Assembly: GCA_019057375.1 (NCBI GenBank) | Contig: DXJF01000075.1 | Span: 1 to 23,447, forward strand | DNA from: Candidatus Heimdallarchaeota archaeon | Lineage (GTDB): Archaea > Asgardarchaeota > Heimdallarchaeia > Heimdallarchaeales > Heimdallarchaeaceae | Length of the DNA: 23,447 nt | Direction of reading: 5' to 3' | Shown here: in pieces, positions 4,212-22,623 of the stretch | How the letters are laid out: every line of letters begins with the position of its first letter | Numbering within the stretch: the stretch's first letter is position 1 | Translations under genes and position numbers: made by a program | Notes under the pieces: generated by a model | The model's database searches: none | What the model saw: the letters and a program-made list of their open reading frames with translations, nothing else | Told to the model about the DNA's origin: nothing

Positions 4212-4218
4212 TTTTCAA

Positions 4219-4224
4219 GGAGGT
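4219..4224 (+). promoter_or_regulatory. Shine-Dalgarno GGAGGT for the epimerase, 7 nt upstream of ATT 4232
   Basis: Perfect GGAGGT. Spacing to ATT is similar to RBS-to-ATG spacing of other genes in the window. Confidence 0.7.
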
Positions 4225-4231
4225 TTTTCTT

Positions 4232-5173: not shown

Positions 5174-5301
5174 ACAATCAAAATACAATCTTTTGAAGAA
5201 ATATCGATTATTTTTACATATTATTTTCTTTTAAACCGAAATGATTAAAAAATAGAGTGTAAGACATGATACTGACCATAACTTTTGAAAGGGGTATTAA
5301 A

Positions 5302-5577
5302 ATGAACGATGAGACCCTCGAACAAATAGATGAAGCAGTACAGCTTTTGGAAAGAATAAGTGAGGATACAACAGTCCCAAGGAATATTAAAAGAGCAGCA
5401 ACAAATTCGCTGGAGATAATAAGAGAACCAGATCCAGAACTAAGTTTAGCAGTGAAAGCTAACAACGCAATTGAAATCCTTGATGAAATCTCTCAAGATC
5501 CTAATTGCCCAGCCCATGCTAGAACTATGTTGTTACAGATAATTACCCTGTTAGAAATTACTGACTTTGATTACTAA
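5302..5577 (+). CDS. UPF0147 family archaeal protein
   Basis: I.ED.TVPRNIKRAA..S......A..AI.ILDEISQDPNCP.HART signature. ATG 5302 follows a GGGGT RBS and is preferred over 5266. Confidence 0.85.
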   Translation: MNDETLEQIDEAVQLLERISEDTTVPRNIKRAATNSLEIIREPDPELSLAVKANNAIEILDEISQDPNCPAHARTMLLQIITLLEITDFDY

Positions 5578-5603
5578 AAAATCAAAAAGTAGATACACTT
5601 TAC

Positions 5604-5621
5604 TTTCTTTTTTCTTTCTTT
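5604..5621 (+). terminator. Putative archaeal oligo-T terminator between the convergent UPF0147 and GlmU-like genes
   Basis: TTTCTTTTTTCTTTCTTT tract about 26 nt after the UPF0147 stop. Confidence 0.4.
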
Positions 5622-5637
5622 AAGATTTTTTATGGGA

Positions 5638-6864: not shown

Positions 6865-7082
6865 CTTCTATTTATCCTATGTTTTTTCTTTATTATATCT
6901 TTTTGCGCTTAGTTATCAAACTAAAGAACTGTCACACTATTTTTCAAAGCATTTTTCTTATTCACTCTTTTTTACTCAAAACCAGTATATAACTTTTATC
7001 ATTAATCTGTTAAAAACTAGGTTAATAAAGGATAATTAGGAAGATATTTATTTGTTATAAACAAATTTTCTAACTTTTTAAA

Positions 7083-7177
7083 CTATTCTTCAAAAGTAGG
7101 TTCTTCCTCTTCTCCCAACATAGAAGTCAACTTTCCTTTGTTTGTTTCTAAGTTTTCAATTATTAACTTTTTAACAT
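7083..7177 (-). pseudogene. Frameshifted 5' stub of a paralog of the neighbouring ABC ATPase
   Basis: ATG TTA AA(A) AAG TTA ATA ATT GAA AAC TTA GAA ACA AAC AAA GGA reads ML(K)KLIIENLETNKG if one A is restored, versus MSGKLIIENLEKVYKG for the ATPase at 10699. It begins 1 nt after the permease stop. Confidence 0.6.
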
Positions 7178-7178
7178 T

Positions 7179-9980
7179 TTATCCCCCTAAAATTTGTTCA
7201 CCCATTTGTGTGATTATAGAAGTATCAAATTTCTTCTTTACAAAGGAATAACTCAATAGGGATACAAGAAAACTCATTCCTGAAATAAAAAGAAGATAGT
7301 AAAGTGTAAGGGGAGCTACAGTACTTAGACTATAAATCTTGATATCTATTGCTTTGACTCCAGGATGAAATAGAGCAGACAGCACAACCCCAACTAAAAA
7401 ACCCAATAAAATATTGATTACAAGTAAGACAAATGTGCTCATAATCAAGTTTCTTCTTAACTTCTTGATTTCTATTCCTCGAGCTATTGCAACAAAAATC
7501 GATCTCTTATTGGTATCAATAATTGATTGGAAGTAAAAAAGAGTAAAGCAAATGGTTGCGAATGTAAGGATGAATGCTTCAATTTTAGGTATATTCCATA
7601 CAATGTTGGATAAGTCTGCATCAACAGGTCCAAGATAATCATTACTCACTCTTTCTCCATTTACACGTATAAAAAACTCATTTTTTAGTAAACCCAATTG
7701 TAGTTCAATTTTATTATACCACTCTATAGGGTCAACTCCATCTTTTAGTTTGATATATAATGATGAAAAGAACGAATCTCCATAATAATCTTCTAGCAAA
7801 GAAATATCTGCAACATAATAATATGTTTTAGTTGTAGATCCCCCATATTTGTAATTATAATCCCAACCATAATCGGAAATGAACGGAAAAATATTAAAGA
7901 AGTCAAAAACTGTGAAATTAGCTTTTATTGGTTCTTCTATTAGAGTAAAATTGAGCGGTACTTGAAATTCTACTGGTCTTATTGCAAGACTAATATTATC
8001 ACCTGATGTATAACTCTTTCCTTTTACTAAGTCTCTAGATGCTAAAATAGAGCGATTATTCAGAAGCATTTCTTGAAAATTGAAATCCTTTCCTTCTGAG
8101 TTCTCTATGTTAAAATCATCAGGACATGTTGCTGTAATGTTACTAATGGAAACAAAAAAGATTTCATCTCTCCATATCTCTTCTTCCCAATAAGGACCTT
8201 CTCTCATTTCAATACTCTCTTGAGTGGTCAATTCTACTGCTTGTACATATGATTCGACATCTTTATCAGATAAGATAAAATTTACTTCTGAAGTGTTCAC
8301 AAAAGAGCGAGAACCAACTTGAAAACTTATGTCAGCATAATTTTGACCATAGTTATTTTCCAATTCTTGGTATAGACTTACAGTATTTAAAGCGAAACTT
8401 GTCATTAAAATCAACCAGAAGTTAATTAGGATGAACAATTTAATGCTTCTTCGTTTTGAAACAATCATTTTTTGAAGAAACAATTTAATTTCCTTTGTTC
8501 TTGAAAATGCTCTATTTATTAGACTTAGACTTGTAGTAAGATTGATTCTAATAGAGAACAAGGTTACTACAATGAAAAATATTGCACCTGCTGCAATTCT
8601 TGTAATTAAGATAATTGATGAAAAGAAATTGGGATTGATATATGGCAGAACAAAAGAATAAACAAGGAATAGTAGACCTAGAAAACTTAGGAGCACTATG
8701 GTTTTTAGTGATAGTTCTTTTTGTTCTGTTCCTTTCTTTTCTTTCTTCTTATACTCACTTTGGAATAGCTCAAATTGTTCTTTTGTGAAACGATTTAATG
8801 TAACTATTTTTATGATTTCAATAGGTATTAGTAAAATTATCCCTCCTACAACTGAAATCAAAAAAGAAGAATTTTGAGAACCAATCTGTGTAATTATCTC
8901 TCCAATCCCACATAAGAAGATTAAAACGACTATGTCATTGAGTAAGTGAATAACTGAATAGTGTCTAACGAATTGCCTTGTCTTAGCTCCTCGGGTATAG
9001 TACAGATGTAATTCCCTTTTGAGAGTATCATTCCCTTCCTTTGTCAAAATCCATAAAATGAACCCAAGTATTATCAAACTTGGAAATAAGATCATTTCAA
9101 TCAGAACAAGATTAAGTGTAATTGAACCGATAAAGTCTTCATAAACAAATCCTGTACTTCTATATTTTTTACTTATTAACAATCCTATTCTAGATGCTTC
9201 GTCCTCAATTATTTCTTCTACTTCTGTTCTATAATCATCAATTTTGTAAGGATCTATACTATCCAAAAATGTTGAACTAATGTCAATGTAAAATTCAGCA
9301 TTAACATTTTCTCCCTCAAAAGAAGTATTCATACTTGGTAGATTTTCGAAATTTATCAGAGCTCCTTTTAAACGCTTGTGTAAAACTCTATAATCTTCTG
9401 TATAAGAAGAACAGAATTTAAATTCAAAATCAGACGAGTCTTTGCTTAGAGTGATAGTATCATTAATTTCCAGATTATTACTAACACTATAAGTACTGGA
9501 AAAGAATATGTCATCTTTAACTACTGTTTTGTCAGGAAACATCCATTGTAGTAATGGTTTGGATGTAATGTAAATTGGTGCACTAAAATTTCCACTACTT
9601 GTTGTGAAATTGAAATTTCTTGGAATATATACTGTCTCTTGCCCACCATCATGTGGTATTATAATCTTCTCTTCAAAACTTAAAAACATATAAAGTGTAA
9701 AGTGATTTTCATCTGAAATTGAAGAAATATTCGAAATAAAATCAGTAATCTTCACAACATCTGATTCTAAAAAATAATCGAATCTTTTTTCATAGCTTAA
9801 ATCTATAAGTCTTCCATGCCCACCAATATCTTCTGTTTCAAGCATAATTTCCTTGTAGTATTCAGCATAAATTGTTGAATAAACTGAACCGAACAAGAAT
9901 ATTATTAGAAAGATAGTTGTAATAAGAGTTGAATAAAAAAAGAACCACTTTCTTCCCTTGAAGGTTTTTAGTTTGAACAT
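7179..9980 (-). CDS. FtsX/MacB/LolE-type ABC transporter permease with duplicated architecture
   Basis: 933 aa. N-terminal TM, large extracellular loops, two TM bundles preceded by ..RE...YYTRG.. and ..KRS....IARG.. FtsX-like motifs. Adjacent to the ABC ATPase. Confidence 0.75.
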   Translation of the reverse strand: MFKLKTFKGRKWFFFYSTLITTIFLIIFLFGSVYSTIYAEYYKEIMLETEDIGGHGRLIDLSYEKRFDYFLESDVVKITDFISNISSISDENHFTLYMFLSFEEKIIIPHDGGQETVYIPRNFNFTTSSGNFSAPIYITSKPLLQWMFPDKTVVKDDIFFSSTYSVSNNLEINDTITLSKDSSDFEFKFCSSYTEDYRVLHKRLKGALINFENLPSMNTSFEGENVNAEFYIDISSTFLDSIDPYKIDDYRTEVEEIIEDEASRIGLLISKKYRSTGFVYEDFIGSITLNLVLIEMILFPSLIILGFILWILTKEGNDTLKRELHLYYTRGAKTRQFVRHYSVIHLLNDIVVLIFLCGIGEIITQIGSQNSSFLISVVGGIILLIPIEIIKIVTLNRFTKEQFELFQSEYKKKEKKGTEQKELSLKTIVLLSFLGLLFLVYSFVLPYINPNFFSSIILITRIAAGAIFFIVVTLFSIRINLTTSLSLINRAFSRTKEIKLFLQKMIVSKRRSIKLFILINFWLILMTSFALNTVSLYQELENNYGQNYADISFQVGSRSFVNTSEVNFILSDKDVESYVQAVELTTQESIEMREGPYWEEEIWRDEIFFVSISNITATCPDDFNIENSEGKDFNFQEMLLNNRSILASRDLVKGKSYTSGDNISLAIRPVEFQVPLNFTLIEEPIKANFTVFDFFNIFPFISDYGWDYNYKYGGSTTKTYYYVADISLLEDYYGDSFFSSLYIKLKDGVDPIEWYNKIELQLGLLKNEFFIRVNGERVSNDYLGPVDADLSNIVWNIPKIEAFILTFATICFTLFYFQSIIDTNKRSIFVAIARGIEIKKLRRNLIMSTFVLLVINILLGFLVGVVLSALFHPGVKAIDIKIYSLSTVAPLTLYYLLFISGMSFLVSLLSYSFVKKKFDTSIITQMGEQILGG

Positions 9981-10033
9981 TTTCTATTCTCCAGATTTAT
10001 TCGATTATTTTACAGCTAATTGTATTTATACAC

Positions 10034-10699
10034 TTAGATTATCCGTTTTTCTAAAGATATGACTTGCTTGGACTTCTCAATGATTTTCTCGTCGTGGGTA
10101 GCCAAAAGAAGGATTTTCTCATGTTCTTGGGCTTCTTTAAAAAGTAAATCAATCACTATGTCAGCAGTCTCACGGTCAAGATTACCTGTAGGTTCATCAG
10201 CGAGAATAATTTGTGGATCATTAGCTAAAGCTATACCTATAGCTACTCGTTGTTGTTCTCCTCCACTTAAAAAACGAGGATAGGTTTGAGCGTAGCGATT
10301 GATATCGAGTTCTTCAAGTAAAAATTGAACCCGTTCCCTGATTGCTTTCTTATTCTTTTGTGCAATCCAAAGGGGGAAAGCAATATTTTCAAACACAGTA
10401 AAGAATTCGATAAGATTATAACTTTGGAATACTATCCCAACTGTTTGAAGTCGATAATCAACTAATTCTTCATCAGTAAAGGCGTTGACTAGCTTCCCAT
10501 TGCTAATTATTTTCCCAAATGTAGGTTCTAATAATCCAGCTATACAAAGCAAGATTGTGCTCTTTCCTGAGCCACTAGGTCCAGCTAAAGTAGCACTCTC
10601 TCCGCTGTTCAGGGAAAGATTGAAATCTCTTACTGCGATGGTTTCCACCTCTCCTTTATACACTTTTTCTAAATTTTCTATGATTAATTTTCCTGACAT
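10034..10699 (-). CDS. ABC transporter ATP-binding protein (LolD/MacB-like)
   Basis: Walker A GPSGSGKS, Q-loop IVFQ, signature LSGGEQQR, Walker B/D-loop ILADEPTGNLD, H-loop ATHD. AGGAG RBS. Confidence 0.95.
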   Translation of the reverse strand: MSGKLIIENLEKVYKGEVETIAVRDFNLSLNSGESATLAGPSGSGKSTILLCIAGLLEPTFGKIISNGKLVNAFTDEELVDYRLQTVGIVFQSYNLIEFFTVFENIAFPLWIAQKNKKAIRERVQFLLEELDINRYAQTYPRFLSGGEQQRVAIGIALANDPQIILADEPTGNLDRETADIVIDLLFKEAQEHEKILLLATHDEKIIEKSKQVISLEKRII

Positions 10700-10728
10700 A
10701 AGTATTCTCCTTAGATTATTTCTCCTAT

Positions 10729-10836
10729 TTATGCTAGATAGGTACTACTATGTTGTAATAGAAAATCATTGATTATTCTTGTAGTGGAACGCGCAAAGAA
10801 CCATTCTCGTGCCTTGAACTTATTCCTTTTGAACAT
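10729..10836 (-). pseudogene. 35-codon ORF resembling the N-terminus of the downstream permease (stub or small peptide)
   Basis: MFKRNKFKAREWFFARSTT versus permease MFKLKTFKGRKWFFFYSTL: 11 of the first 18 residues identical. GAGTGA RBS-like element upstream. Confidence 0.55.
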
Positions 10837-10977
10837 TTTTATCACTCAATCTAACAGCTTTATTTAATTTCTTCATTAATAAATCTAGCTTAATTGTAGA
10901 AAGCACCTATCCTTATTTACTGAATTATCCACATCTATTAAAAACCAAAGATTTTTATCGTATTCTCCGGCTTATCA

Positions 10978-11451
10978 CTATGGTTTGTATTCTCCTAAGA
11001 TTTGTTTCCACTGATGTTTACTTCTTTCTTTATGTATCTTGAATGCTTCATCTTTATGTTCCTCAAATTCTTCGAAAGAGCACTCATTTATTCTGCAAAA
11101 ATGAGCAGCTAAATCTTGGTAATCCAAACCTGACTTCTCAAGTATACCTCTTCCCTTTGATGTATAACACCAAAAACCTATATGTTTAATTTTGTGACAT
11201 AATCCACAAAGATGATGTATAGCATTAAGTGTTTGAACGTAATTTTTGTCATCATATTCCCAAAATTCATGAGCATCTAATCTTCCAGAAGAATCTCCAC
11301 ATATCCAGCATTTTCTACCTTCTTTAGAAAAAATTTCATTCTTGATTTCTTTCCAGATATCTGATTTCCCTTGGTCTTGATAATATCTATAGAGCGATTC
11401 ATTCCAGACTGTTGATGGAACTAATTCAATGGTTAATTTGAATTCAGTCAT
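10978..11451 (-). CDS. Stand-alone HNH (beta-beta-alpha-metal) endonuclease with Zn-binding CxxC pairs
   Basis: CWICG...L.AHE.W.YD...Q.L..I..LCGLCH..KH motif. True start is probably ATG 11451 (MTEFKL), 9 nt after GGAGGAG, giving 157 aa and removing the overlap with Ago. Confidence 0.8.
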   Translation of the reverse strand: MTEFKLTIELVPSTVWNESLYRYYQDQGKSDIWKEIKNEIFSKEGRKCWICGDSSGRLDAHEFWEYDDKNYVQTLNAIHHLCGLCHKIKHIGFWCYTSKGRGILEKSGLDYQDLAAHFCRINECSFEEFEEHKDEAFKIHKERSKHQWKQILGEYKP

Positions 11452-11477
11452 TCTATTATTCTCCTCCTTAATTCTAG

Positions 11478-13775
11478 TTACAAACATAAATAGTTTTCAG
11501 GTATAATAACCCCCGCTGTTAGATTTTCACCAATAGATTGAGTCAATAGTTGAGGAAGTGCGTACTTGCTCTTTTTAAAGAAAGAGTTCCAATTCAAATG
11601 CGTTAGATTATAGTACTCTTGCACAATCTCCTCTATCTTTGGTTCAGGGAGAGCAATCCCCAAACAAAAGTGTCCCATAAGTGAAATTTCTAAGGGGATA
11701 TTTGTTCCTTTGTCTGTTTCACTTGATACAAGTAACGCAGTCCGTTCGTTTAGTTTAACACATGTTCCTGAGACTACATTCTTCCAATTTGATATACTAA
11801 TTTCGTTATAAATCTCCTTCTTGGGTGATTTATTCACACTCACTAAATCAATGACTATGTTATTTGGGAGATTTGTATCTGCCTTAATTATATCAAACAA
11901 AGGCTTTCTATTCTTGTCCTCAATTCCTTCAAATAACACTGTTCTAATTGCTTCTACATCTTCTTTGTACATCTGTCCATCTTTTGCAAACACTAATCTT
12001 TTGAATCTGAAAAAATCTGATAGATCTGCATATCTTTTCTCATGAATTACTGATTTTCTTAAGATTGACAATATCATATCATAAGAATTGAGTAAATCTA
12101 ATTTTTCTGATCCTGTTGGAAAGCTCCCAGAATAAATAATCCTTCCATAAGAATCTGTAATTGCAGTATATACTGAAGAATGTGTCTTCCTTTCTGCGCG
12201 TCTAGATATGTCATAGTAACTGTAACAAGTATTCCCTCCTTTCATACCAGAGATTACGTGATCAGCAGGTTTTTCTAGAACCCATGGTACGATTCCTGGT
12301 TCACTTCCTTTAGTATACACTTGCCCTATAATATTAATTAAAGAATAGTCCTTCCTCTTCCTGAAGAATGAATCTAAAGTTGTGGATTCAATACTTTGAG
12401 TATGTAACTTTGGATGATTTTCATCATATGGAGAGAAAAAAACTCTACGCATTGAGTAATACATTTCATTACTATAGTCATCAATAGGTAGAACTACGAA
12501 GATTAAAGGAAGTTTCTTCTTCTCTTCCTGTACAAGTTCCTGTACTCTCATCGCTGCTTTTTCATATTCCTGAAAGTCTGTATTTTTGATTTTATAAAAT
12601 CCGTCTTTAATATTTGCATTTGGATTCTTTGGTACATAAGGTCTCAAATTTCCAAAATTCTTTGTTCTAAAGATTTCACTTATTCTATCAAAGAATGCTC
12701 CAACCAAAACCCCCTCAGGATATATAACAATATACTTTACATCAATTGATCCACCTAATGGATAAACATCATCACCAAATAACATTAGTTTCTTATTATA
12801 AGGAATTATTGAATTCTTGAGTTCACCATTTTCTTTTTTCAATACTTGAATATTAGAAACTGAAGTTAGTTTAGAGTATTTGTGATCTATCTGGTCAATA
12901 TCAACAGGATCTGTAAATAGATAATTCAATCCAAGAAACTTGAAATCATAGAAATATGTCTCAAGAAACTTTCTAGCTTTTTCTATACGTTTGTTGGGAC
13001 ACATTCTAACAAAATCTGGCATTTTAGCATATTCAAACTCTTGAAAAACACAAGAAATTGGATAGGTGAATTGAGAAACTGAACCAAAACTTTCAAACTC
13101 AACTTTTACCATCTCCTCGTCGTCTTTCACAAAAGCAATTTTGTTGGTTTCTTTCCAATATTGAGATGGTTTTTTCTTAATTTCCCATGCTCCTTTACCT
13201 CTCAATATCCCATGTCTCCACTTTGGCAGCACACGAACATTAATTTTCTTTGTGTCACTAAATCTCAATATATCTTGATTCAGTCTTTTCATAATTTTGT
13301 ATTTTGGCCTTATCCATAGAATTAGTCTATTTTTTATTATCTGAGACTGAATCAAAACCGCTTCCTTGAAATCGGTGTCTTTTTGTATTTCAGTCTGTGA
13401 AACATAATTTCCAGGAAAAGATAAAAATCCTTTCTTCTGCAAAAAGGTCCTGATTCTATTCTTTAATGACTCTTCAACTACATCAAGAATTTCATTTAAA
13501 TTAACTTCAATTGGTTTTTGTATTTGAATCATATTTCCAAGAAATGCCTTTACCTTATTCTCATTGTCTTTCCCTAGAAAAACAATATCACAATTCTCTT
13601 TCTGAAAACGACGAGGAGCCACACAACAATCTATTCCTTTTCTATTCAGAAATGAGCATTTTGACTGTTGCAGTTTCCTCCGGTTTTCAACATCTTCTTC
13701 AATTCTTATTTTTCCAATAAAAAGTGTTTTTGGTAATTCTTGTTCAGATAAGTAACCATTTAGATTTAATTTCAT
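11478..13775 (-). CDS. ago: Long prokaryotic Argonaute (N-L1-PAZ-L2-MID-PIWI)
   Basis: 765 aa. L1 (LWIRPKYKI), PAZ-like YWK..K...V.V.F....YP.S.V, MID Y-x3-R..TQ..Q.YTKG..PW.L, PIWI YYDIS, FAKDG, GT...L, P.EI, Y.LT.LNWNS, hydrophobic C-terminal YLCL. Confidence 0.92.
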   Translation of the reverse strand: MKLNLNGYLSEQELPKTLFIGKIRIEEDVENRRKLQQSKCSFLNRKGIDCCVAPRRFQKENCDIVFLGKDNENKVKAFLGNMIQIQKPIEVNLNEILDVVEESLKNRIRTFLQKKGFLSFPGNYVSQTEIQKDTDFKEAVLIQSQIIKNRLILWIRPKYKIMKRLNQDILRFSDTKKINVRVLPKWRHGILRGKGAWEIKKKPSQYWKETNKIAFVKDDEEMVKVEFESFGSVSQFTYPISCVFQEFEYAKMPDFVRMCPNKRIEKARKFLETYFYDFKFLGLNYLFTDPVDIDQIDHKYSKLTSVSNIQVLKKENGELKNSIIPYNKKLMLFGDDVYPLGGSIDVKYIVIYPEGVLVGAFFDRISEIFRTKNFGNLRPYVPKNPNANIKDGFYKIKNTDFQEYEKAAMRVQELVQEEKKKLPLIFVVLPIDDYSNEMYYSMRRVFFSPYDENHPKLHTQSIESTTLDSFFRKRKDYSLINIIGQVYTKGSEPGIVPWVLEKPADHVISGMKGGNTCYSYYDISRRAERKTHSSVYTAITDSYGRIIYSGSFPTGSEKLDLLNSYDMILSILRKSVIHEKRYADLSDFFRFKRLVFAKDGQMYKEDVEAIRTVLFEGIEDKNRKPLFDIIKADTNLPNNIVIDLVSVNKSPKKEIYNEISISNWKNVVSGTCVKLNERTALLVSSETDKGTNIPLEISLMGHFCLGIALPEPKIEEIVQEYYNLTHLNWNSFFKKSKYALPQLLTQSIGENLTAGVIIPENYLCL

Positions 13776-13786
13776 TTTTTACACCA

Positions 13787-14152
13787 CTATGTGTCTGGTA
13801 ACCCCATTTTTGTTCTTGAATCTAGTATAAGGTGAATAAGATACCCAATACAAATTGCACACAATCCAACTGTTATGATGTTTGCACCAAAGCTGAATAC
13901 TGCAAATATAGATATTATCCCAACAGCACTTAGGATAAATAACACCAGCAAAGAATGAAAGGTACTTCGGTGGAAAGGTCCTGTTGCAGGTTCAATTAAA
14001 TCTGGTAAGATTGATCCTAACACTAATAGACCAATACCAATTGATACAGTGAGAAATATCATTGCAGGATTTCTAGAGAAAAACATCAATAGGAGTATTA
14101 TTGGTCCTCCAAAAATAATTCCTTTTTTTAGATGCTCTTTTCTATCTGGCAT
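13787..14152 (-). CDS. YdjM-like (LexA-binding, inner-membrane-associated) metal-dependent hydrolase, about 4 TM segments
   Basis: N-terminal His (KEH), GSILPDL.EP, HRS.FHS and GY..HL.LD..T..G.P motifs with hydrophobic helices. AGGTG RBS. Stop is 11 nt before the Ago ATG. Confidence 0.8.
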   Translation of the reverse strand: MPDRKEHLKKGIIFGGPIILLLMFFSRNPAMIFLTVSIGIGLLVLGSILPDLIEPATGPFHRSTFHSLLVLFILSAVGIISIFAVFSFGANIITVGLCAICIGYLIHLILDSRTKMGLPDT

Positions 14153-14171
14153 TTTATTACACCTATGATTA

Positions 14172-14200
14172 ATAAAGTGAAGTTTAAAACTACACTTTAT
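14172..14200. promoter_or_regulatory. 29-bp near-perfect palindrome, candidate operator overlapping the promoter of the ydjM-ago-HNH operon
   Basis: ATAAAGTG-A-AGTTT-A-AAACT-A-CACTTTAT: 13 of 14 arm pairs complementary. Lies 20-48 nt upstream of the ydjM ATG and contains a TTTTAAA TATA-like element on the minus strand. Confidence 0.65.
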
Positions 14201-14302
14201 AGTTTTAATTGTACTGTGTACCTATAGAATTCTTTATAAAGGTTTTTGTCACAGTGTTCACATAATAAAAAATCTGATTAATTGGTTCCTAGAGGAAGTA
14301 AA

Positions 14303-14896
14303 ATGAAACATAAAAGGAGTGTCTTGATATCACCAATTTTTTCTCCAGATTCAATTATCGCAATTATTGTGAGGTATAGAATTGAGAAATTAGTTTTATT
14401 AGTAGATAAACAGATTAAAAATGAACAAAGGGAGTCTATTGAGAAATTGAGACAAACGTTTGGTAAAGCACTTTCAATTGATCAAAAAGAAATAGAATTA
14501 TTCAATATTGTAGATATAACAACTAGAACAATAGAAATCATTCGCGAATATCAAAATGATTATGAAATAATACTTAATATTTCAACAGGTAAAAGAACAC
14601 AAGCTTTTGGAATGATTTATGGTTCTACAATTGTTGCAGAGCATGTTGAAAGGATAATATATTACGATCATGATACTGCTGAAATGATAGAATTTCCAGT
14701 ATTATGCCATGGTTTATCTGAAGTTAAAGGACAAATTCTTCGTTACTTGAATAAAAACGAATCAATAGAGAAAATTCACAGAGAAACAGGAAAGAGCAAA
14801 AGCATGATCTATAGTCATATCAGAGATCTAAAAGAAAAAGGATATTTGGATGAAGAGGGAAATTTGACTGAAATAGGACAAATACTTGTTCATTAG
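14303..14896 (+). CDS. Csa3-like CARF + winged-HTH transcriptional regulator
   Basis: N-terminal Rossmann-like CARF pattern (VLISP...VLLVD; NISTGKR..AFG matches the N.SgG.R motif) and C-terminal HTH (IEKIHRETGKSKSMIYSHIRDLKEKGYL..LT..G). ATG 14303 preferred over TTG 14282. Confidence 0.75.
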   Translation: MKHKRSVLISPIFSPDSIIAIIVRYRIEKLVLLVDKQIKNEQRESIEKLRQTFGKALSIDQKEIELFNIVDITTRTIEIIREYQNDYEIILNISTGKRTQAFGMIYGSTIVAEHVERIIYYDHDTAEMIEFPVLCHGLSEVKGQILRYLNKNESIEKIHRETGKSKSMIYSHIRDLKEKGYLDEEGNLTEIGQILVH

Positions 14897-14928
14897 TCCT
14901 TCTCTTGTTTTTATTGAGGTATAAATAA

Positions 14929-15240
14929 ATGAATGGTTATGGTGAAATTAAAACCAAAATTCTTCCAAATGAAATCCAAGAAGGAGATTTCATTCGATTC
15001 AGAGTTGAACCTTGGTTTGCTAGAAGAGAAGGATTAGCTAGATTCTTCAAAGATGAAAACGATGGTATTAACCAAGGTTTTGTTTCGGTAGTAACTCCTA
15101 AATCTGTTATTATTCCTTTTTGTAAAATTCATGAGAGAAGGGATAAACAGATACCCAAAAGCGTTTTTGTTTATGTATTTCGAATAGAAAACAAGATGAG
15201 AAGAGATTGGGTTAAAGAATCAAGAGAAACAATGGAATAA
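14929..15240 (+). CDS. Hypothetical 103-aa protein, probably co-transcribed with the CARF regulator
   Basis: ATG with GAGGT RBS 8 nt upstream, 32 nt after the regulator stop. No family recognised. Confidence 0.6.
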   Translation: MNGYGEIKTKILPNEIQEGDFIRFRVEPWFARREGLARFFKDENDGINQGFVSVVTPKSVIIPFCKIHERRDKQIPKSVFVYVFRIENKMRRDWVKESRETME

Positions 15241-16196
15241 TCAAAATTTCCATTTAGATTATCCCAAAAATTTCCTATTTGTTCTATTTCTTGAAACCAA
15301 CTATTTTCCTCCCCATTATCCTCAGCTTGAGATTTTTCAGGATTAAAGTTTCCTTCGAAATAATTGTAGTAGATCTGATTACTATCACTATTATCATCCA
15401 AACTTAAACCATAATTTTCATTATTTTCAAAGAGATTAAACTTAAAGAAACAGTAGTCAGAACTTTGCAAAAACTCTCCTCTCTTCCCATTCTCACTGAT
15501 AGTATTATTCTTAAAAATAACACCATCACTCCCCTCAATAATCACTCCCTCTTCTCCATTTCTAGAGCAAGTATTGTTAAGCAGAACAGCAAACTCTATC
15601 CCTCCAATATACAGACCCTCACCACTATTTTCATAGCATTCGTTATCATAGATTCCTAGGTTAGTAACTAAAGCAATAGATATTCCAGTAGCTCCATTTC
15701 TAAAACAGTGATTTTGCCTGATCAATGCATTATGACAGAAGGTTACAACTATCCCAAAAGCTTCATTATCATAACAGAGATTATTTTGAATCGCTATACT
15801 ATAAGTAGTGAAAACAATTATTCCTTTGCCATTCTCCCGCTCACTATTAGCACAGATGTTGTTTTCAATCCTAATTTCACCTTCAAAGACGTTTTTCACA
15901 AAAATGCTATTGAAAGAAGCATCAATGAAACAATTGCGAATGAGAAGGTGTTTTGTGATATTAGTAACATAAATACCATAAGAATCAGAAGCAGAGATAT
16001 TGAAACCTTCGATAAAATAAGGATCCTCGTAAGTACCAGAACCTTCGAAAACTAGTAAATCGTTATCAGAAGTAATCTCTATAGGTGCATGGAGGGTGTA
16101 TTGTAACTCAGTAAAACCTACTGCAGAGTCTAAGTTACATGAAATTAGCGTCAACCCAAGTATAATTATCAAAATTCTTCTCCAGATAGGTACCAT
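15171..16196 (-). CDS. Secreted right-handed parallel beta-helix (NosD/CASH-like) protein, probably C-terminally truncated
   Basis: Signal peptide, H.PI.I..DND...G.G....PY.IEG, repeated NN.C..N...GI units, GNFW motif. The last 70 nt overlap the opposite-strand 103-aa ORF. Confidence 0.75.
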   Translation of the reverse strand: MVPIWRRILIIILGLTLISCNLDSAVGFTELQYTLHAPIEITSDNDLLVFEGSGTYEDPYFIEGFNISASDSYGIYVTNITKHLLIRNCFIDASFNSIFVKNVFEGEIRIENNICANSERENGKGIIVFTTYSIAIQNNLCYDNEAFGIVVTFCHNALIRQNHCFRNGATGISIALVTNLGIYDNECYENSGEGLYIGGIEFAVLLNNTCSRNGEEGVIIEGSDGVIFKNNTISENGKRGEFLQSSDYCFFKFNLFENNENYGLSLDDNSDSNQIYYNYFEGNFNPEKSQAEDNGEENSWFQEIEQIGNFWDNLNGNFDYSIVSLDSLTQSLLILFSIRNT

Positions 16197-16305
16197 TCCA
16201 ATTCTCTAGAAATACTAAATGGAAATATAAAAACTAAAAAGAAATATACTTTACTATTTTTTCTCTCGTTTATAAACGAATCTTCTGATAATATTATAGA
16301 AGAAA

Positions 16306-18141
16306 TTGAATATCAAAGGTTTGGGTTATTGTACTCTAGTGGTAATATGCCTAATTAGTGGTGGTTTTCTTTCCATAAACGCCGATTTTGCTTTTTACTC
16401 TGGAACCAATACCATACAAGCAACTTCTTCTCTTGATCAGAACCTTATCTTTATTTTTGATGAAACTTATCACGAAGAGACCTTTCATCTGACTGTAAAA
16501 TCTCTGGAACTAGGTGAATTCAACAGATTAACACTTTTCTTCATGGTTAATGATACCAGTACTCAGGAAGAACTGAATGCAGTCTTTACAATTGGTAATA
16601 CTTCAGTTGAATTTACCATTGAGAGAATTTTTCAAGATGGTTTATCCCACAATCTAACAGAGACCTTTCTTTTTCCTGTTCAGTTTTCCGGAGATTTGGA
16701 TATATCCATTCTTTGTGGAGGGCAATCTGATTCTAGTTCGGTTAGTTCTTTGACCATTTTCAATACTACAACAATTGAGAAGATAGAAGTTCCTACTTTG
16801 TTTAATACTCCAGGAGATCTTCCTGTTTTTCCAGATTGGTTAACTTTTCAAGGTAAACAAATGGGTGGGGAGAAAAGATCTACTTCTTCTGCCTTCTATT
16901 GTTCTGAAGAAAACACTAAAATCAATCTTACCCTTTCCTTTTTTGCAAATGAAATACGTGCTTTTGTGAAGGAAGTAGAACTCAGCATAAATGATGTATG
17001 GGTGGCAGCAGGATGTTTTCAAGCGAATTCTTGCAATGAGATGAATTTCATTTTTCAACCTGATGCTGGATTTAATCTTCTCTCTATTAATTTCTCTATC
17101 GAGTATTCTAGTGACCTAATTAAGATAACCAATATTTCTCTCTCTGGTTCTCTTCTGTATTTTGATATAGGTTCTGATGTCTTTGATTCTTTCCAATGGG
17201 GAGAAGGGAGTTTTATTCATTCTTTTGATTTATCTTCCTTACAACCTACCAATTATTACTCTGAGCAAGTGTTACATGTAACTGTTGATTACCAATGTCA
17301 AGGAGTGAAAGTTTCTACAGGGATTCAATATTCTCTAAAAGCAGGTTCAACTGTTCTTGAAGAAGGTACAATTAGTTACTTAGACCAAATGCATGAAACC
17401 AACAGTTTGGAAATTCGAACGTATACAACAGATTATCGTGAAAATCTTTATTTTGTCATTCGCGGTTCTACTCACGATGCAGGAATATTCCTCATTCTAA
17501 ATTCAAGTAAGATTGAGACGGCTCCTTTACCTGAAGTAACAGAAGAACCTTTGGATAGGTTGGTGGCATCAGATTATGATATAACTTCTCTTACTTTCTT
17601 CCAGACAGTTACTTTTTATGATGTTTTCCAAACAAAAGGTTCACCTCTGGTTAATTTCTTTCTTAGTTTCAATATTGATTCTGGCTATGAAGATCCATTT
17701 GATTCCATGATTGTAGAAGTTAAAAATGGAGGAGCAACAATCATTTCGAAGTTTATTCGTAGTGTTAGTTTTACTAATATTAGCGTTCAACTTCCTCTTC
17801 AAATTGGATACCATGAATTACGAATAAGTTTCCAGATTACAAGATTAAACACCCCCATACAGATCCAAGACCTTCGCTATCAGGTGGAAATCATTCCAGA
17901 ACCACCCACAATTTCCTTCCCTTTTGGTTCTCAAGCAGTTTATTGGTTATTAGGGATTTACGGTGCTTTTTTCTTTCTTTTCAATGATAAGAATGTTTTC
18001 AGAAAACATCTCAAGAGAAAAGCTCTCTCTCACAATCTTACAGAATCCTTGCCAGTTGATGAGAAGTCGAAGAAAAAGACGAGAGTACGTTTACTAGTGG
18101 CCCTTATCATTGCAGTAGCTGCATATCTTGTTTTCTCTTAG
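16306..18141 (+). CDS. Large secreted/membrane-anchored hypothetical protein (beta-rich ectodomain, C-terminal TM helices); possibly the 5' half of a frameshifted gene
   Basis: TTG start, N-terminal hydrophobic signal, Ser/Thr/Phe-rich beta-strand pattern, TM at AVYWLLGIYGAFFFLF. The ORF ends in the middle of a second hydrophobic helix. Confidence 0.65.
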   Translation: MNIKGLGYCTLVVICLISGGFLSINADFAFYSGTNTIQATSSLDQNLIFIFDETYHEETFHLTVKSLELGEFNRLTLFFMVNDTSTQEELNAVFTIGNTSVEFTIERIFQDGLSHNLTETFLFPVQFSGDLDISILCGGQSDSSSVSSLTIFNTTTIEKIEVPTLFNTPGDLPVFPDWLTFQGKQMGGEKRSTSSAFYCSEENTKINLTLSFFANEIRAFVKEVELSINDVWVAAGCFQANSCNEMNFIFQPDAGFNLLSINFSIEYSSDLIKITNISLSGSLLYFDIGSDVFDSFQWGEGSFIHSFDLSSLQPTNYYSEQVLHVTVDYQCQGVKVSTGIQYSLKAGSTVLEEGTISYLDQMHETNSLEIRTYTTDYRENLYFVIRGSTHDAGIFLILNSSKIETAPLPEVTEEPLDRLVASDYDITSLTFFQTVTFYDVFQTKGSPLVNFFLSFNIDSGYEDPFDSMIVEVKNGGATIISKFIRSVSFTNISVQLPLQIGYHELRISFQITRLNTPIQIQDLRYQVEIIPEPPTISFPFGSQAVYWLLGIYGAFFFLFNDKNVFRKHLKRKALSHNLTESLPVDEKSKKKTRVRLLVALIIAVAAYLVFS

Positions 18142-18152
18142 GTACTTCCCTC

Positions 18153-20687
18153 ATGTTTAATGTTCTTCATTGGGCTCTTAATGTTCTCTATGTGATCTGT
18201 GCCTATCATATAGGCTCTTGGGTGAACATGTTAGATCTCAATAAGAAACCAATCAGGAACACTTGGAAGAAAGTACAAGAGTTCTTCGCAGAAACCGATT
18301 CTTTTACTGATCTATTCAACAAGATTGTGGATTTCTTGACAAATCAGACCAAGAAATATGCCCTAAGATTCTTAATCTTAATTCTTACTCTTCTTACAGC
18401 AGCAGTACATGTTGGTATTCTCGTATTCTTCAACCAGAGACCAGTTCTTATGAACCTACAACAGGTCTCCAGAATATATTCTCTTCTCCTTGCTAGTTTT
18501 ATCATATCCTCTTCCTTCTTTTTCTATGCATTACATCTTACTAAGAAGTTCTCTTTTCTGGAGGATAACATCAGAAGAGTAAGGTTACTTGGGGGGCTTT
18601 CGTTTATCTTAGTTACAGGTTCATTACTTGTTTTGAATGTCCTTGCTTTTAGCAAGACCTTCGATTTCGCTATCCTTTGGACCTTCCTTTCTCCTTTGAT
18701 GATTGTAGCGTTAATTAAATCATCTAACAAACTAGGGAAAATCATCGCAGACGAGGAGAATCTGACTTATTCAAAGTTTCTGAAGAATGGTAAGGTGTGG
18801 ACAAAGAAGAAAGAGGTTAAGCAAGCAACGGAACAAGGGATACTTCTAAGAAAAGACTGGAGAAAGGAAGAAAAAATACTCAATAAGAACAGACTCAGGG
18901 GAATAATCATCTGGGATATTAAACCAGAAATTCCTGTATCTCTAACTCGTTTAGCGGAGTTGATGAAACTTTCGACCAAAAAAACAGAAAGATTACTAGA
19001 TGCTATCCTCAATGAAATACCTAATCTAGGAGAGTATCATAGAGAAGAACAGGTGTTTATTAGAAAACTTCCTGATAATACTAGTGGTACAGAAAAGATG
19101 GATGTAGATGAAGTGGTAAGGGTTCCAGAAATAGAAGGAGCTAAGAAAGTTCTCGAATGGGAAGGAAGAATAGTAAAGGGGGGTGGTCGTGGAGCAGGAT
19201 ATTTAACCCTCCCTATAGACTTAAGAGATTCTGTAGAGCCGGGGTGCTTCTATGACCTAAGCTTAATTGATTCCAATCTAGAAACTCATGTTTTAACAGC
19301 CAAATTATCGGCAACAAAAAAGGGGTGGGGGTTCTACATACCTCAAGCTCTTTGTATAGAACATTCTTTGATAGGGGAAACAGTTACTTGTTACATCTAT
19401 CAGATGGATCATTTTCCAGTAAAACTTTCAGCAGACAAGATTGTACGGTTACCAAATTCGATTGTAGAAGAGTATGAAATAGAAGAAAATGATTTGTTTG
19501 AAGTAGAAGTGATTACAAAATCAGGAATATTTGGGGAAGTAGTTCTAATAACTAAAATTGACCGCTCAAATAGATCAGATAATGATGAATATAGACTTAC
19601 TCTGAGGTTAAGTGATGCCCCACGCTCTACAGACGCAAGAATTAAACTACTAAAAAGAGTGGAAAAACTATCTTCAAATATAGAAGAGGAAGAAAATTAT
19701 GAGAATTTCTATCTACCAACGTTGTTTCCAGATGGGATAATGGGAAGGTTACATGAGAATGAAATGATAATCTTTCTGGGAAACCATGTACCAACCTTTG
19801 CTCCAATTAGGATTAATTTGTTAGAATTTATCCATTACTTTGGGTGCTATTATGCGGATGGAACAAGGAAGGGATGGGCATGGAGGATAAATGCATCAAC
19901 ACCAGAACAAGCTGTATATTACATCGATATCTACGACAAACTAGTTATTGGAAATAAATTAGTGTTTGAATTAACATACAGTAAGAAACCATCTGATAAG
20001 AGAACAAAAGAACAATTAAAGATGGATCTTGTAAAGTATTGGAAAGAAAAAGCTGATGTAGAGATAGAGGAGAAGAGAATAAAACTTCGAGAAACAAAAC
20101 ATGATAATGTTCTAAAATGGAATAAGTGTGGATCATTAGGGATCAGGGATAATAGAAATTTAGTTATGGAGATACATCTAAGAGTGATGAAAGCAATAAT
20201 TGAATATCTGAATGATTGTAATAATGAAAAAAACTTGTGGGACTTCTTATTTGGAATATTAGAAGGAGATGGAAGTGTAAGTGGGGGAAAAAATAGAATC
20301 GGTATTGGATTTGCTTTTCACAATGATGATAAAGTTATTCGTGAGCTACTTGATAGATTGAAACTAAAGTATTCTTTTGACTCATCTAGAGTTAAAAGGG
20401 AAGAAGGATTTGGGGTTTACGCTTCAATTTGGTTATTTGAGATTCTTATCAATTTAAAGATACTTTCAGAAAATCTATTCAAGTATTATCCAAAAAGAAG
20501 GATTTTATTCATAGAAAGACTTCTGAAACAGAAGACTGTCAAATTAATCCTTGAGAATAAAAAACCTGGATTGTTTTTATCATTAAGAGATGATGAAGAA
20601 GTTGACTTTGAAGAACTAAAATCGATTCTGAAAAATCTTTGTAAAGAGTTAGAAAAACAGCTTCAAACACAAAAAGCGAATGTGTGA
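18153..20687 (+). CDS. Chimeric protein: multi-TM domain + wHTH (PCI-like) + AbrB/MazE-like repeats + two-motif LAGLIDADG endonuclease domain
   Basis: TM helices in aa 1-190; VSLTRLAELMKLS...E..L..I wHTH at aa ~245-305; AbrB-like units (GYLTLPIDLRDSVEPG, GFYIPQALC, IVRLPNSIVEEYEIEENDLFEVEV) at aa ~336-500; LAGLIDADG motifs YFGCYYADG (aa ~562-570) and FLFGILEGDG (aa 698-707). Confidence 0.6.
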   Translation: MFNVLHWALNVLYVICAYHIGSWVNMLDLNKKPIRNTWKKVQEFFAETDSFTDLFNKIVDFLTNQTKKYALRFLILILTLLTAAVHVGILVFFNQRPVLMNLQQVSRIYSLLLASFIISSSFFFYALHLTKKFSFLEDNIRRVRLLGGLSFILVTGSLLVLNVLAFSKTFDFAILWTFLSPLMIVALIKSSNKLGKIIADEENLTYSKFLKNGKVWTKKKEVKQATEQGILLRKDWRKEEKILNKNRLRGIIIWDIKPEIPVSLTRLAELMKLSTKKTERLLDAILNEIPNLGEYHREEQVFIRKLPDNTSGTEKMDVDEVVRVPEIEGAKKVLEWEGRIVKGGGRGAGYLTLPIDLRDSVEPGCFYDLSLIDSNLETHVLTAKLSATKKGWGFYIPQALCIEHSLIGETVTCYIYQMDHFPVKLSADKIVRLPNSIVEEYEIEENDLFEVEVITKSGIFGEVVLITKIDRSNRSDNDEYRLTLRLSDAPRSTDARIKLLKRVEKLSSNIEEEENYENFYLPTLFPDGIMGRLHENEMIIFLGNHVPTFAPIRINLLEFIHYFGCYYADGTRKGWAWRINASTPEQAVYYIDIYDKLVIGNKLVFELTYSKKPSDKRTKEQLKMDLVKYWKEKADVEIEEKRIKLRETKHDNVLKWNKCGSLGIRDNRNLVMEIHLRVMKAIIEYLNDCNNEKNLWDFLFGILEGDGSVSGGKNRIGIGFAFHNDDKVIRELLDRLKLKYSFDSSRVKREEGFGVYASIWLFEILINLKILSENLFKYYPKRRILFIERLLKQKTVKLILENKKPGLFLSLRDDEEVDFEELKSILKNLCKELEKQLQTQKANV

Positions 20688-20689
20688 AT

Positions 20690-22516: not shown

Positions 22517-22623
22517 AAGCAACACTTTAAGTATTTCACTGCTTTTTACTCTAAATAAGTAAAAATGATTTTCCTTATTAAAACTTTCTATTGGATAACA
22601 TGTAGAAAGGAGCTTGAAGCGAG

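What the first reader, a model, noticed from the sequence alone, without database searches (positions are those of the whole stretch)
10978..15240. Candidate new Argonaute defence system: membrane hydrolase + long pAgo + stand-alone HNH operon under a divergent CARF-wHTH regulator
Seen in sequence: ydjM-like gene, ago and HNH are co-oriented with gaps of only 11 nt and 26 nt and each outer gene has an RBS. They face away from a CARF-wHTH gene and a small unknown ORF across a 150-nt intergenic region that holds a palindrome. Established: pAgos that cannot slice often act as sensors that switch on co-encoded effectors (nucleases, NADases, or membrane proteins such as Sulfolobus Aga2), and HNH effectors are described as APAZ fusions with short pAgos. 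Inference: here a full-length long pAgo is paired with both a free HNH nuclease and a TM metallo-hydrolase and is transcriptionally controlled by a CARF protein. I do not recognise this combination from described systems. It may work as guided DNA clearance or as abortive infection.
Basis: partly seen in the sequence, partly recalled or inferred. Interest (0 to 1): 0.9.

Follow-up and report, generated by a model that had tools for sequence, protein, structure and literature searches.

The report
Asgard Argonaute with membrane partner and regulator
A Heimdall-type Asgard archaeon carries a rare full-length Argonaute gene packed between a tiny membrane protein and a small HNH-like protein and facing a CARF-type regulator. 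Only the membrane protein and the regulator recur with related Argonautes, so it is a new variant of an Argonaute defence module, not a fixed four-part system.

Summary
On the minus strand, a 121-aa YdjM-family membrane protein, a 765-aa long pAgo and a 157-aa HNH-like protein are separated by 11 and 26 nt. A Csa3/HFX_2341-type CARF-wHTH gene diverges across 151 nt that hold two overlapping palindromes.

The four-gene "system" is a singleton.
- **YdjM:** among 21 other loci of this rare, mostly archaeal Ago clade, the mini-YdjM recurs only with the closest homolog (49% identity, 4-nt overlap).
- **CARF-wHTH:** it recurs in 5 other loci, across phyla and subclades.
- **HNH:** it never recurs. 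It belongs to a much commoner, highly conserved family whose 22 sampled loci show no Ago.

The clade keeps D-E-D plus an invariant Gln at the fourth tetrad position. It is usually followed by DNA-end-processing genes (NurA-HerA-Mre11-Rad50, or AddA/RecB-like or Dna2-like helicase-nucleases). This scan has already noted that link on other genomes.

Here those genes lie elsewhere in the genome. The 5.1-kb block is strain-variable: it is deleted in a same-genus genome that keeps an HNH remnant.

Most likely this is an invader-DNA interference module made of mini-YdjM plus Ago under a CARF-like regulator, with HNH an uncertain addition. No cOA source (Cas10 or a SMODS-type cyclase) was found. I rate it a new variant of a known kind.

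The parts
13787..14152 (-). Mini-YdjM: a 121-aa membrane protein of the YdjM metal-dependent-hydrolase family, with about 4 hydrophobic segments. It is the first gene of the array.
   Evidence: PF04307 at 2.2e-8, above the cut-off. Conserved LPD-x2-EP, HRxxFHS and HLxxDS motifs. Hydrophobic segments. A 44%-identical homolog overlaps the start of the closest Ago homolog by 4 nt in L004. The Atlas search finds archaeal YdjM clusters of about 120 aa at score 0.94.
11478..13775 (-). Long pAgo of 765 aa (N-L1-PAZ-L2-MID-PIWI). PIWI residues D522, E557, D599 and Q746.
   Evidence: PADLOC pAgo at 9.3e-45. AlphaFold pLDDT 88.4; Foldseek matches to KmAgo, CbAgo, CpAgo, hAgo2 and Siwi at E about 1e-31 to 1e-26 over the full length. 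Invariant D, E, D and Q. Q746 aligns with the D of 'FAD' in short pAgos. Only 55 representatives among 1.84 billion proteins.
10978..11451 (-). HNH-like zinc-finger protein of 157 aa, 26 nt after the Ago stop codon, with a GGAGGAG ribosome-binding site.
   Evidence: Sequence. A family of more than 200 clusters at 54-79% identity, with invariant C48, C51, H61, H79, H80, C82, H86 and H90 and nearly invariant C85. Weak HNH matches. Not Ago-linked elsewhere.
14153..14303 (.). Divergent intergenic region of 151 nt with overlapping palindromes: 14184-14208 (9-nt arms) and 14172-14200 (8-nt arms). Candidate operator and promoter region.
   Evidence: P about 0.05 against shuffles and 0.013 against natural windows. 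No palindrome was found in the equivalent spacer of L005.
14304..14896 (+). CARF-like (HFX_2341_N/Csa3_N) plus winged-helix regulator, transcribed divergently. The ORF opens at TTG 14282.
   Evidence: PF19810 at 6.9e-12, PF22662, TIGR01884 at 2.7e-24, PADLOC CARF3 at 1.1e-49. A 39%-identical homolog lies divergent to the Ago in L005. Related CARF-wHTH genes lie next to the Ago in L023, L025, L032 and L033.
14929..15240 (+). 103-aa ORF after the regulator. It has no relatives and it is uncertain whether it is a real gene.
   Evidence: No Pfam or NCBIfam hit. Absent from the 21 other Ago-clade loci. Atlas best score 0.88, below the level that counts. It overlaps the 3' end of the convergent 15171-16196 gene.
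11074..16171 (.). A 5.1-kb strain-variable block: most of HNH, Ago, YdjM, the regulator, orf103 and a NosD-like beta-helix gene. It is missing from same-genus genome G009.
   Evidence: blastn: window 3192-11073 joins directly to 16172-23090 in G009:C163. The two matches overlap by 9 nt at the junction, and the last 33 HNH codons are retained at 97% identity. The Ago was not found in the 24 other same-genus genomes searched.

Best explanation
This is a real, probably co-transcribed array in a strain-variable block of a Heimdallarchaeial genome: mini-YdjM, then long pAgo, then an HNH-like gene.

The Ago belongs to a rare, deep-branching, mostly archaeal long-pAgo clade. The clade keeps D-E-D plus a conserved Gln in PIWI. 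Its other members are nearly always followed by DNA-end-processing machines (NurA-HerA-Mre11-Rad50, AddA/RecB-like, Dna2-like).

The most likely function is interference against invading DNA (inferred).
- **Guide supply and targeting:** the Ago is loaded with short single strands produced when DNA ends are resected, and it then binds or cuts complementary invader DNA.
- **Resection genes in trans:** in this genome the resection genes act from other contigs (NurA-HerA on C126, Mre11-Rad50 on C40).
- **Conserved local unit:** the local unit is the mini-YdjM plus the Ago. The membrane protein may tether the Ago at the membrane or act as a membrane-damaging effector.
- **Regulation:** expression is set by the divergent CARF-like/wHTH regulator, which probably binds the intergenic palindromes. 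Its ligand is unknown.
- **HNH:** the small HNH-like protein is co-transcribed here. It is either a recently recruited nuclease filling the "downstream nuclease slot" of the clade, or a bystander.

Shown: gene identities, the Ago fold, residue conservation, which neighbours recur, and the variability of the block. Inferred: guide type, targets, the roles of YdjM and HNH, and the regulatory logic.
For: - **Ago fold and conserved residues:**
- **Rarity and phylogeny:** only 55 representatives. WIN, L004 and L005 form a 100%-supported subclade beside a 16-member main clade.
- **YdjM link:** a 44%-identical mini-YdjM overlaps the start of the nearest Ago homolog by 4 nt. Here the spacer is 11 nt.
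- **Regulator link:** CARF-like/wHTH genes lie next to the Ago in 6 of 22 loci. These come from Heimdall, Hydrothermarchaeota, Nitrosopumilaceae and Archaeoglobales-type genomes and from both subclades. Only two such genes exist in this genome, and the other lies beside an OLD-family nuclease.
- **Clade context:**
  - In 12 of 22 loci the Ago is directly followed by NurA, HerA, Mre11 or Rad50 genes.
  - One locus has a UvrD plus PD-(D/E)XK protein.
  - One has a Cas4/Dna2-like helicase-nuclease before Mre11-Rad50.
  - The Ago-adjacent NurA is an extra copy in Halobellus and in a Nitrososphaerales MAG. It is the only copy in a gammaproteobacterial MAG.
- **Resection genes in this genome:** present elsewhere.
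- **Accessory nature:** the 5.1-kb block is deleted in G009, and the Ago was not found in the 24 other same-genus genomes searched.
- **A second HNH next to this subclade:** an unrelated canonical HNH protein of 397 aa also lies next to the YdjM-Ago pair in L004.
Against: - The YdjM link rests on two loci.
  - The only other close mini-YdjM (L036) shows no Ago start in the 168 nt before its contig ends.
  - A paralog in this genome lies among housekeeping genes.
- The fourth tetrad residue is Gln, which is not an established catalytic variant, so slicing is unproven.
- No guide, target or expression data exist.
- The window lacks the resection genes that underlie the mechanistic inference.
- No palindrome was found in the equivalent spacer of the CARF-Ago pair in L005.
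- No cOA or cyclic-nucleotide synthase was found for the CARF-like domain.
Confidence: 0.5

Rival explanations
1. One reading: a four-component abortive-infection system. A non-slicing Ago senses invader nucleic acid and switches on two toxic effectors, the free HNH nuclease and the membrane metallo-hydrolase. Transcription is gated by a second messenger through the CARF regulator.
For: - Tight co-oriented spacing with ribosome-binding sites.
- The fourth tetrad residue is non-canonical (Gln).
- Precedents exist for TM effectors with pAgos: BPAM (PMC10620215) and SiAgo-Aga2 (PMC11788926). HNH-APAZ effectors are known with short pAgos (PMC10810196).
- The block is strain-variable, like defence islands.
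Against: - D, E and D are invariant across the clade, unlike the long-B or short sensor Agos.
- The HNH family is never Ago-linked elsewhere: 0 of 21 other Ago loci and 0 of 22 HNH loci. It is far commoner and far more conserved than the Ago.
- Other clade members pair with DNA-end-processing machines, not toxins.
- No Cas10 or SMODS cyclase was found in the genome.
Confidence: 0.15
2. A stand-alone Argonaute in a patchwork variable region. The Ago acts alone or with host factors, and YdjM, HNH, the regulator and orf103 are unrelated neighbours brought together by rearrangement.
For: - The neighbours of clade members differ widely.
- The G009 deletion ends inside two genes, so the block is not a discrete mobile unit.
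- The same locus holds other, unrelated genes in G010 and G017.
- The YdjM and HNH families occur in housekeeping-like contexts elsewhere.
Against: - The 11-nt and 26-nt spacers, and the 4-nt overlap in L004, argue for co-expression.
- YdjM-Ago and CARF-Ago recur at 30-49% Ago identity, where synteny by descent alone is unlikely to persist, and across phyla for CARF.
Confidence: 0.15
3. Not defence. The clade serves chromosome maintenance (DNA repair, recombination or replication-end processing) together with the resection machinery, as proposed for some pAgos. The window copy is a stripped-down remnant of that role.
For: - The clade is consistently linked to NurA-HerA-Mre11-Rad50 and related repair-type genes.
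- From general knowledge, not tested here: E. coli ydjM is part of the LexA (SOS) regulon.
- RadA lies next to the Ago in two loci.
Against: - Distribution is patchy. The Ago was not found in the 24 other same-genus genomes searched, and it was lost by deletion in G009.
- The Ago-linked resection sets are extra or horizontally moved copies.
- Some relatives lie in defence islands.
Confidence: 0.1

Closest known systems
Archaeal long pAgo followed by NurA-HerA-Mre11-Rad50
   Same: It is the same Ago clade at 30-49% identity, with the same D-E-D-Q residues. The nearest homolog (L004) has mini-YdjM, then Ago, then NurA-HerA-Mre11-Rad50.
   Different: The window has no resection genes next to the Ago. 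It has a small HNH-like gene instead. It also lacks the AAA-wHTH and 240-aa partner genes of the main clade.
BPAM, a long-B pAgo with the trans-membrane effector bAgaM (PMC10620215)
   Same: A full-length pAgo is encoded in one operon with a small membrane protein. No stable Ago-TM complex was detected for BPAM.
   Different: Long-B pAgos have lost the catalytic tetrad, whereas D-E-D is invariant here. The partner here is a YdjM-family protein encoded upstream. Homology to bAgaM (og_100) was not tested.
SiAgo-Aga1-Aga2 of Sulfolobus islandicus (10.1101/2021.12.09.471704; PMC11788926)
   Same: An archaeal Argonaute works with a membrane effector.
   Different: SiAgo is a short, inactive pAgo that needs the adaptor Aga1. 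Here the Ago is long, with PAZ and N domains, and no Aga1-like gene was seen.
Active long-A pAgos that cooperate with nucleases: CbAgo with RecBCD (10.1101/2020.03.01.971358), APACE1 Ago with Cas4-family ACE1 (PMC12094033), pAgo with a PLD-family protein (PMC11442185)
   Same: A long pAgo with an at least partly intact catalytic site is linked to DNA-end-processing or accessory nucleases. The best solved-structure matches are long-A pAgos and eukaryotic PIWIs.
   Different: Sequence identity to all of them is 11-16% in the structural alignments. The fourth tetrad residue is Gln. The accessory genes differ (YdjM, HNH-like, CARF-wHTH).
Short pAgo systems with HNH-APAZ effectors (mentioned in PMC10810196)
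   Same: An HNH-type nuclease is encoded next to an Argonaute.
   Different: In those systems HNH is fused to APAZ and pairs with a short pAgo. Here HNH is a free 157-aa protein of an unrelated, widespread family beside a long pAgo.
Csa3-type CARF-wHTH regulators of CRISPR-Cas loci (TIGR01884)
   Same: A CARF-like Rossmann domain followed by a winged helix, transcribed divergently from a defence operon, with a palindrome in the spacer.
   Different: It is not next to cas genes. The genome's CRISPR-Cas locus, with type I-B-like components, is on another contig. No cOA synthase was found.

Membership tests
Long prokaryotic Argonaute | Full N-L1-PAZ-L2-MID-PIWI architecture | tested here: met
   AlphaFold model with pLDDT 88.4 and pTM 0.88. 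Foldseek aligns about 840-900 columns to KmAgo, CbAgo, CpAgo, hAgo2 and Siwi at E 1e-31 to 1e-26.
Long prokaryotic Argonaute | PIWI catalytic tetrad DEDX (X = D, H, N or K in active Agos) | tested here: inconclusive
   D522, E557 and D599 are invariant in 18 clade members. The fourth position is Q746, kept in at least 90% of them. It was placed by profile alignment to the 'FAD' of short pAgos. Activity with Gln is unknown.
Long-B pAgo / BPAM | Loss of the catalytic tetrad | tested here: not met
   D-E-D is retained and invariant.
Long-B pAgo / BPAM | bAgaM (og_100) trans-membrane partner | not tested
   No bAgaM sequence was on hand. The partner here is a PF04307 YdjM-family protein.
Short pAgo with HNH-APAZ | Short pAgo (MID-PIWI only) with an APAZ-fused HNH effector | tested here: not met
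   The Ago is full-length. The HNH-like protein has 157 aa and no further Pfam domain.
YdjM family (PF04307) | Score above the Pfam gathering threshold, with conserved His/Asp motifs in a multi-pass membrane protein | tested here: met
   34.3 bits against a cut-off of 29. Only profile positions 28-113 of 176 are matched. LPD, HRxxFHS and HLxxD are conserved in 3 sequences. About 4 hydrophobic segments.
HNH (beta-beta-alpha-Me) nucleases | Match to HNH profiles or to the HNH fold | tested here: inconclusive
   No Pfam hit at E up to 1. PtuB scores 8.5e-4 and the IscB HNH region 0.016. The best fold rows are T4 endonuclease VII, DotN, Gme HNH, the Cas9 HNH domain and McrA, at Z 2.3-3.6 only.
HNH (beta-beta-alpha-Me) nucleases | Two CxxC zinc knuckles flanking a catalytic His and a downstream His/Asn | tested here: met
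   C48xxC51, H61 (AHE), H79, H80, C82 and H86 are invariant in 18 homologs; C85, the second Cys of the C82xxC85 knuckle, is nearly invariant.
Csa3-type CARF-wHTH regulator | N-terminal CARF-like Rossmann domain plus a C-terminal winged helix | tested here: met
   PF19810 at 46.3 bits (cut-off 30), PF22662 at 28.8 (cut-off 27), TIGR01884 at 85.7 (cut-off 60.2), and HTH models at residues 149-192.
Csa3-type CARF-wHTH regulator | Association with cas genes and a cyclic-oligoadenylate source | tested here: not met
   There are no cas genes in the window. Cas1 and type I-B-like cas genes lie on contig C8. No Cas10 (TIGR02577, TIGR02578) or SMODS was found in the 89%-complete genome.
Resection-operon-linked archaeal pAgo clade | Ago directly followed by NurA/HerA/Mre11/Rad50 genes | tested here: not met
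   The Ago is a clade member by sequence, but the window has HNH and then an ABC transporter downstream. The resection genes are on C126 and C40.

The most novel reading that the evidence does not exclude
CARF-like/wHTH sensors form a recurrent control layer for an archaeal Argonaute clade. Ago immunity would then be switched on by a nucleotide or other small-molecule alarm signal, as cross-talk with CRISPR or CBASS-type signalling. In the Heimdall subclade the Ago would work through a new kind of partner: a minimal YdjM-type membrane metallo-hydrolase that either kills the infected cell or places the Ago at the site of DNA entry.
Probability: 0.15. Interest if true: 0.85.

Novelty: new variant of a known kind. 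Interest (0 to 1): 0.55.

Why it matters
Asgard archaea hold the most diverse Argonautes known, and almost none have been characterised.

This locus shows that one deep-branching clade swaps its accessory genes freely. The alternatives are resection machines, helicase-nucleases, AAA-wHTH or CARF-wHTH regulators, and here a minimal YdjM membrane protein.

Two points would be new to specialists if confirmed:
- a CARF-family regulator repeatedly paired with a pAgo;
- a YdjM-family protein, whose function is unknown, as an Ago partner.

The conserved D-E-D-Q site also gives a direct test of whether Gln can replace the fourth catalytic residue.

Tried and rejected
- **Word-index homolog search with the Ago:** no hit. 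A single-sequence search of PDB also found nothing. Relatives came only from the exhaustive HMMER search.
- **The search for related loci with the 18-sequence alignment:** it failed because no stretch was conserved enough. The 8-sequence alignment worked.
- **Complex prediction, Ago plus mini-YdjM:** no verdict (score 0.00). This is neither support nor evidence against binding.
- **HNH fold:** Foldseek found no significant PDB match for the confident model. VIA-align gave Z 3.6 at most.
- **Reverse check of the HNH link:** a 397-aa HNH protein lies near the closest Ago homolog, but it shares no detectable similarity with the window's HNH.
- **Third mini-YdjM (L036):** its contig ends 168 nt after the gene with no Ago start, so it is uninformative.
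- **Palindrome conservation:** no palindrome was found in the equivalent spacers of L005 or L004.
- **Long-A versus long-B placement:** Only profile and fold matches are reported.
- **IQ-TREE:** the careful run did not finish in time, so the tree cited is the quick one.
- **A Pfam call with wrong coordinates:** it errored and was repeated with correct ones.

Full report
**1. What is in the sequence**

The window is a whole 23.4-kb contig of a 3.47-Mb metagenome-assembled genome that is 89% complete. Housekeeping proteins of the contig fall into 90%-identity clusters whose named members are Candidatus Heimdallarchaeota/Heimdallarchaeaceae.

Three genes lie head to tail on the minus strand:
- a 121-aa protein (13787-14152);
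- a 765-aa protein (11478-13775);
- a small protein whose true start is the ATG at 11451. Eighteen homologs begin there.

The spacers are 11 nt, containing GGTG, and 26 nt, containing GGAGGAG. The simple scan found no hairpin-plus-T-run terminator-like site anywhere in 10700-15400.

A 197-204-aa gene (ORF from 14282, probable start at 14304) diverges across 151 nt, followed by a 103-aa ORF. The spacer holds two overlapping palindromes at 14184-14208 and 14172-14200. An arm of 9 nt or more arises in about 5% of shuffles and in 1.3% of natural windows of the contig.

**2. Identities**

- **First gene.** It is a short YdjM-family membrane protein: PF04307 above threshold, about four hydrophobic segments, and conserved LPD, HRxxFHS and HLxxD motifs. 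It resembles archaeal YdjM clusters of about 120 aa.
- **Second gene.** It is a full-length long pAgo.
  - The PADLOC pAgo model scores 9.3e-45.
  - A confident AlphaFold model (pLDDT 88) aligns over its whole length with KmAgo, CbAgo, CpAgo, human Ago2 and Siwi.
  - Profile searches put long-A pAgos (VbAgo, KmAgo, CpAgo), eukaryotic PIWIs and the Asgard HrAgo1 nearest among solved proteins, all remote.
  - D522, E557 and D599 are invariant in the clade.
  - The fourth tetrad position is Q746, almost invariant, placed by profile alignment to the "FAD" of short pAgos.
- **Third gene.** It is HNH-like by motif (two CxxC knuckles, AHE, HH, H). It has only weak profile and fold support.
- **Divergent gene.** It is a Csa3/HFX_2341-type CARF-like domain plus a winged helix.
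- **103-aa ORF.** It has no relatives.

**3. Is the set a system?**

The Ago clade is rare: 55 representatives among 1.84 billion proteins. I collected 21 further loci and clustered their neighbours.

- **Mini-YdjM.** It recurs only with the closest homolog. That Ago is 49% identical, the YdjM is 44% identical, and the two genes overlap by 4 nt.
- **CARF-like/wHTH genes.** They lie next to the Ago in 5 other loci. These come from different phyla and from both subclades of the tree.
- **HNH-like gene.** It recurs in none. Its family is much commoner (more than 200 clusters) and far more conserved (54-79% identity across Asgard, Woesearchaeota and a Thermodesulfovibrionales bacterial MAG).
  - It was found in 21 of 400 Asgard genomes.
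  - None of 22 sampled family loci has an Ago, YdjM or CARF neighbour.

So two pairwise links are supported, and the four-gene combination is unique to this window. One caveat applies. An unrelated, canonical HNH protein of 397 aa also lies next to the YdjM-Ago pair of the closest homolog. A nuclease of this class may therefore be a loose, replaceable partner.

**4. What the clade usually does with its neighbours**

- In 12 of 22 loci the Ago is directly followed by NurA, HerA, Mre11 or Rad50 genes.
- In one further locus it is followed by a UvrD plus PD-(D/E)XK helicase-nuclease.
- In one of the 12 it is followed by a Cas4/Dna2-like helicase-nuclease ahead of Mre11-Rad50.
- Upstream, 8-10 loci carry an AAA+ ATPase-wHTH gene and a soluble 240-aa protein of unknown function.

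The Ago-adjacent NurA is an extra copy in Halobellus clavatus and in a Nitrososphaerales MAG. It is the only copy in a gammaproteobacterial MAG. These sets therefore travel with the Ago.

I found no paper describing this link. Earlier notes of this scan report it independently on other genomes. It points to a DNA-end-dependent mode of action, analogous to bacterial long-A pAgos fed by RecBCD/AddAB or by Cas4-family partners.

In the window's genome the resection genes lie on other contigs.

**5. Genomic status of the block**

A same-genus genome (G009) joins window 3192-11073 directly to 16172-23090. The two matches overlap by 9 nt at the junction. G009 keeps the last 33 codons of the HNH gene at 97% identity. 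A 5.1-kb block was therefore deleted there. It held most of HNH, the Ago, YdjM, the regulator, orf103 and a NosD-like gene.

The Ago was not found in the 24 other same-genus genomes searched, and it appears in only one distant relative among 60. Other genus members carry different genes at this place, including a Schlafen/AlbA_2 protein. The block is accessory, as expected for defence genes. It is not a discrete mobile element.

**6. The regulator**

Only two HFX_2341_N-type genes exist in the genome. The other lies beside an OLD-family ATPase-TOPRIM nuclease. That fits a role for this regulator family at defence loci.

No Cas10 or SMODS cyclase was detected, and the CRISPR-Cas locus has type I-B-like components. 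The idea of cyclic-oligoadenylate control therefore has no visible source, and the ligand is unknown.

**7. Verdict**

- **Best reading (confidence about 0.5):** an accessory invader-DNA interference module. Its conserved local core is mini-YdjM plus a possibly active D-E-D-Q long pAgo. It is controlled by a CARF-like/wHTH regulator and draws on resection enzymes encoded elsewhere. The HNH-like protein is an uncertain, possibly recent addition.
possible but less likely (about 0.15).
- **Other rivals:** a stand-alone Ago among unrelated neighbours (about 0.15), and a repair rather than defence role (about 0.1).

This is a new variant of a known kind (pAgo with accessory genes), in a clade that appears undescribed in the literature I could search. 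I put interest at 0.55. The Asgard origin, the D-E-D-Q site, the recurrent CARF-type regulator and the YdjM partner are all worth testing, but the headline "new four-gene system" does not recur.

Noticed in passing
Related loci L004, L006, L008, L009, L024, L026-L028, L030, L031, L034, L035 (Ago at about 8000-10300 in the genome-contig loci): The Ago clade is directly followed by NurA-HerA-Mre11-Rad50, or by Mre11-Rad50-NurA, in 12 of 22 loci. It is often preceded by an AAA+-wHTH gene and a soluble 240-aa gene of unknown function. The Ago-linked NurA is an extra copy in Halobellus clavatus. No paper describing this link was found.
   Followed up: partly
L023:10369-13371 and L024:10324-13029: In two clade members the gene after the Ago is a large helicase-nuclease. 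One is UvrD plus PD-(D/E)XK (AddA/RecB-like). The other is a Cas4/Dna2-like nuclease plus an SF1 helicase, followed by Mre11-Rad50. This looks like a 'downstream DNA-end-processing slot'.
   Followed up: partly
window 10978-11451, with homologs P0057-P0175: The 157-aa HNH-like protein belongs to a family kept at 54-79% identity across Asgard, Woesearchaeota and a Thermodesulfovibrionales bacterial MAG. The family has no Pfam model and lies in unrelated contexts. Its nearest solved look-alike is the Legionella T4SS protein DotN/IcmJ (weak). Its function is unknown.
   Followed up: partly
G000:C30:20-2435 (L060): The only other HFX_2341_N-type CARF-wHTH gene of this genome lies convergent to an OLD-family nuclease (AAA_15 plus TOPRIM) on a 2.7-kb contig.
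   Followed up: partly
L005:5654-8364: About 1.9 kb downstream of the second-closest Ago homolog lies a SMODS cyclase plus a ThiF/E1-like gene (CBASS-like). That Ago also has a divergent CARF-wHTH gene.
   Followed up: no
window 16306-18141 and 18153-20687: Two large ORFs (611 and 844 aa) have no Pfam match at E up to 0.001. Another note of the scan proposes a LAGLIDADG fusion for the second one. I did not examine it.
   Followed up: no
G010:C11:1153-6422 (L019): At the equivalent place, a same-genus genome carries a 462-aa Schlafen/AlbA_2 protein on one side of the NosD-like gene and a 620-aa LRR plus RING-finger protein on the other. The locus is a variable spot in the genus.
   Followed up: partly
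G060:C103 (L003:6204-9871): A distant Ago of a same-class genome (28% identity in PIWI) is followed by a RmuC-family protein and a PolB-type 3'-5' exonuclease-like protein. This is a different accessory set.
   Followed up: no
G000:C69:1579-2055 (L062): A second YdjM-family paralog (35% identical, 158-aa ORF) lies beside an MFS transporter and a flavodoxin. The family is therefore not defence-specific in this genome.
   Followed up: partly
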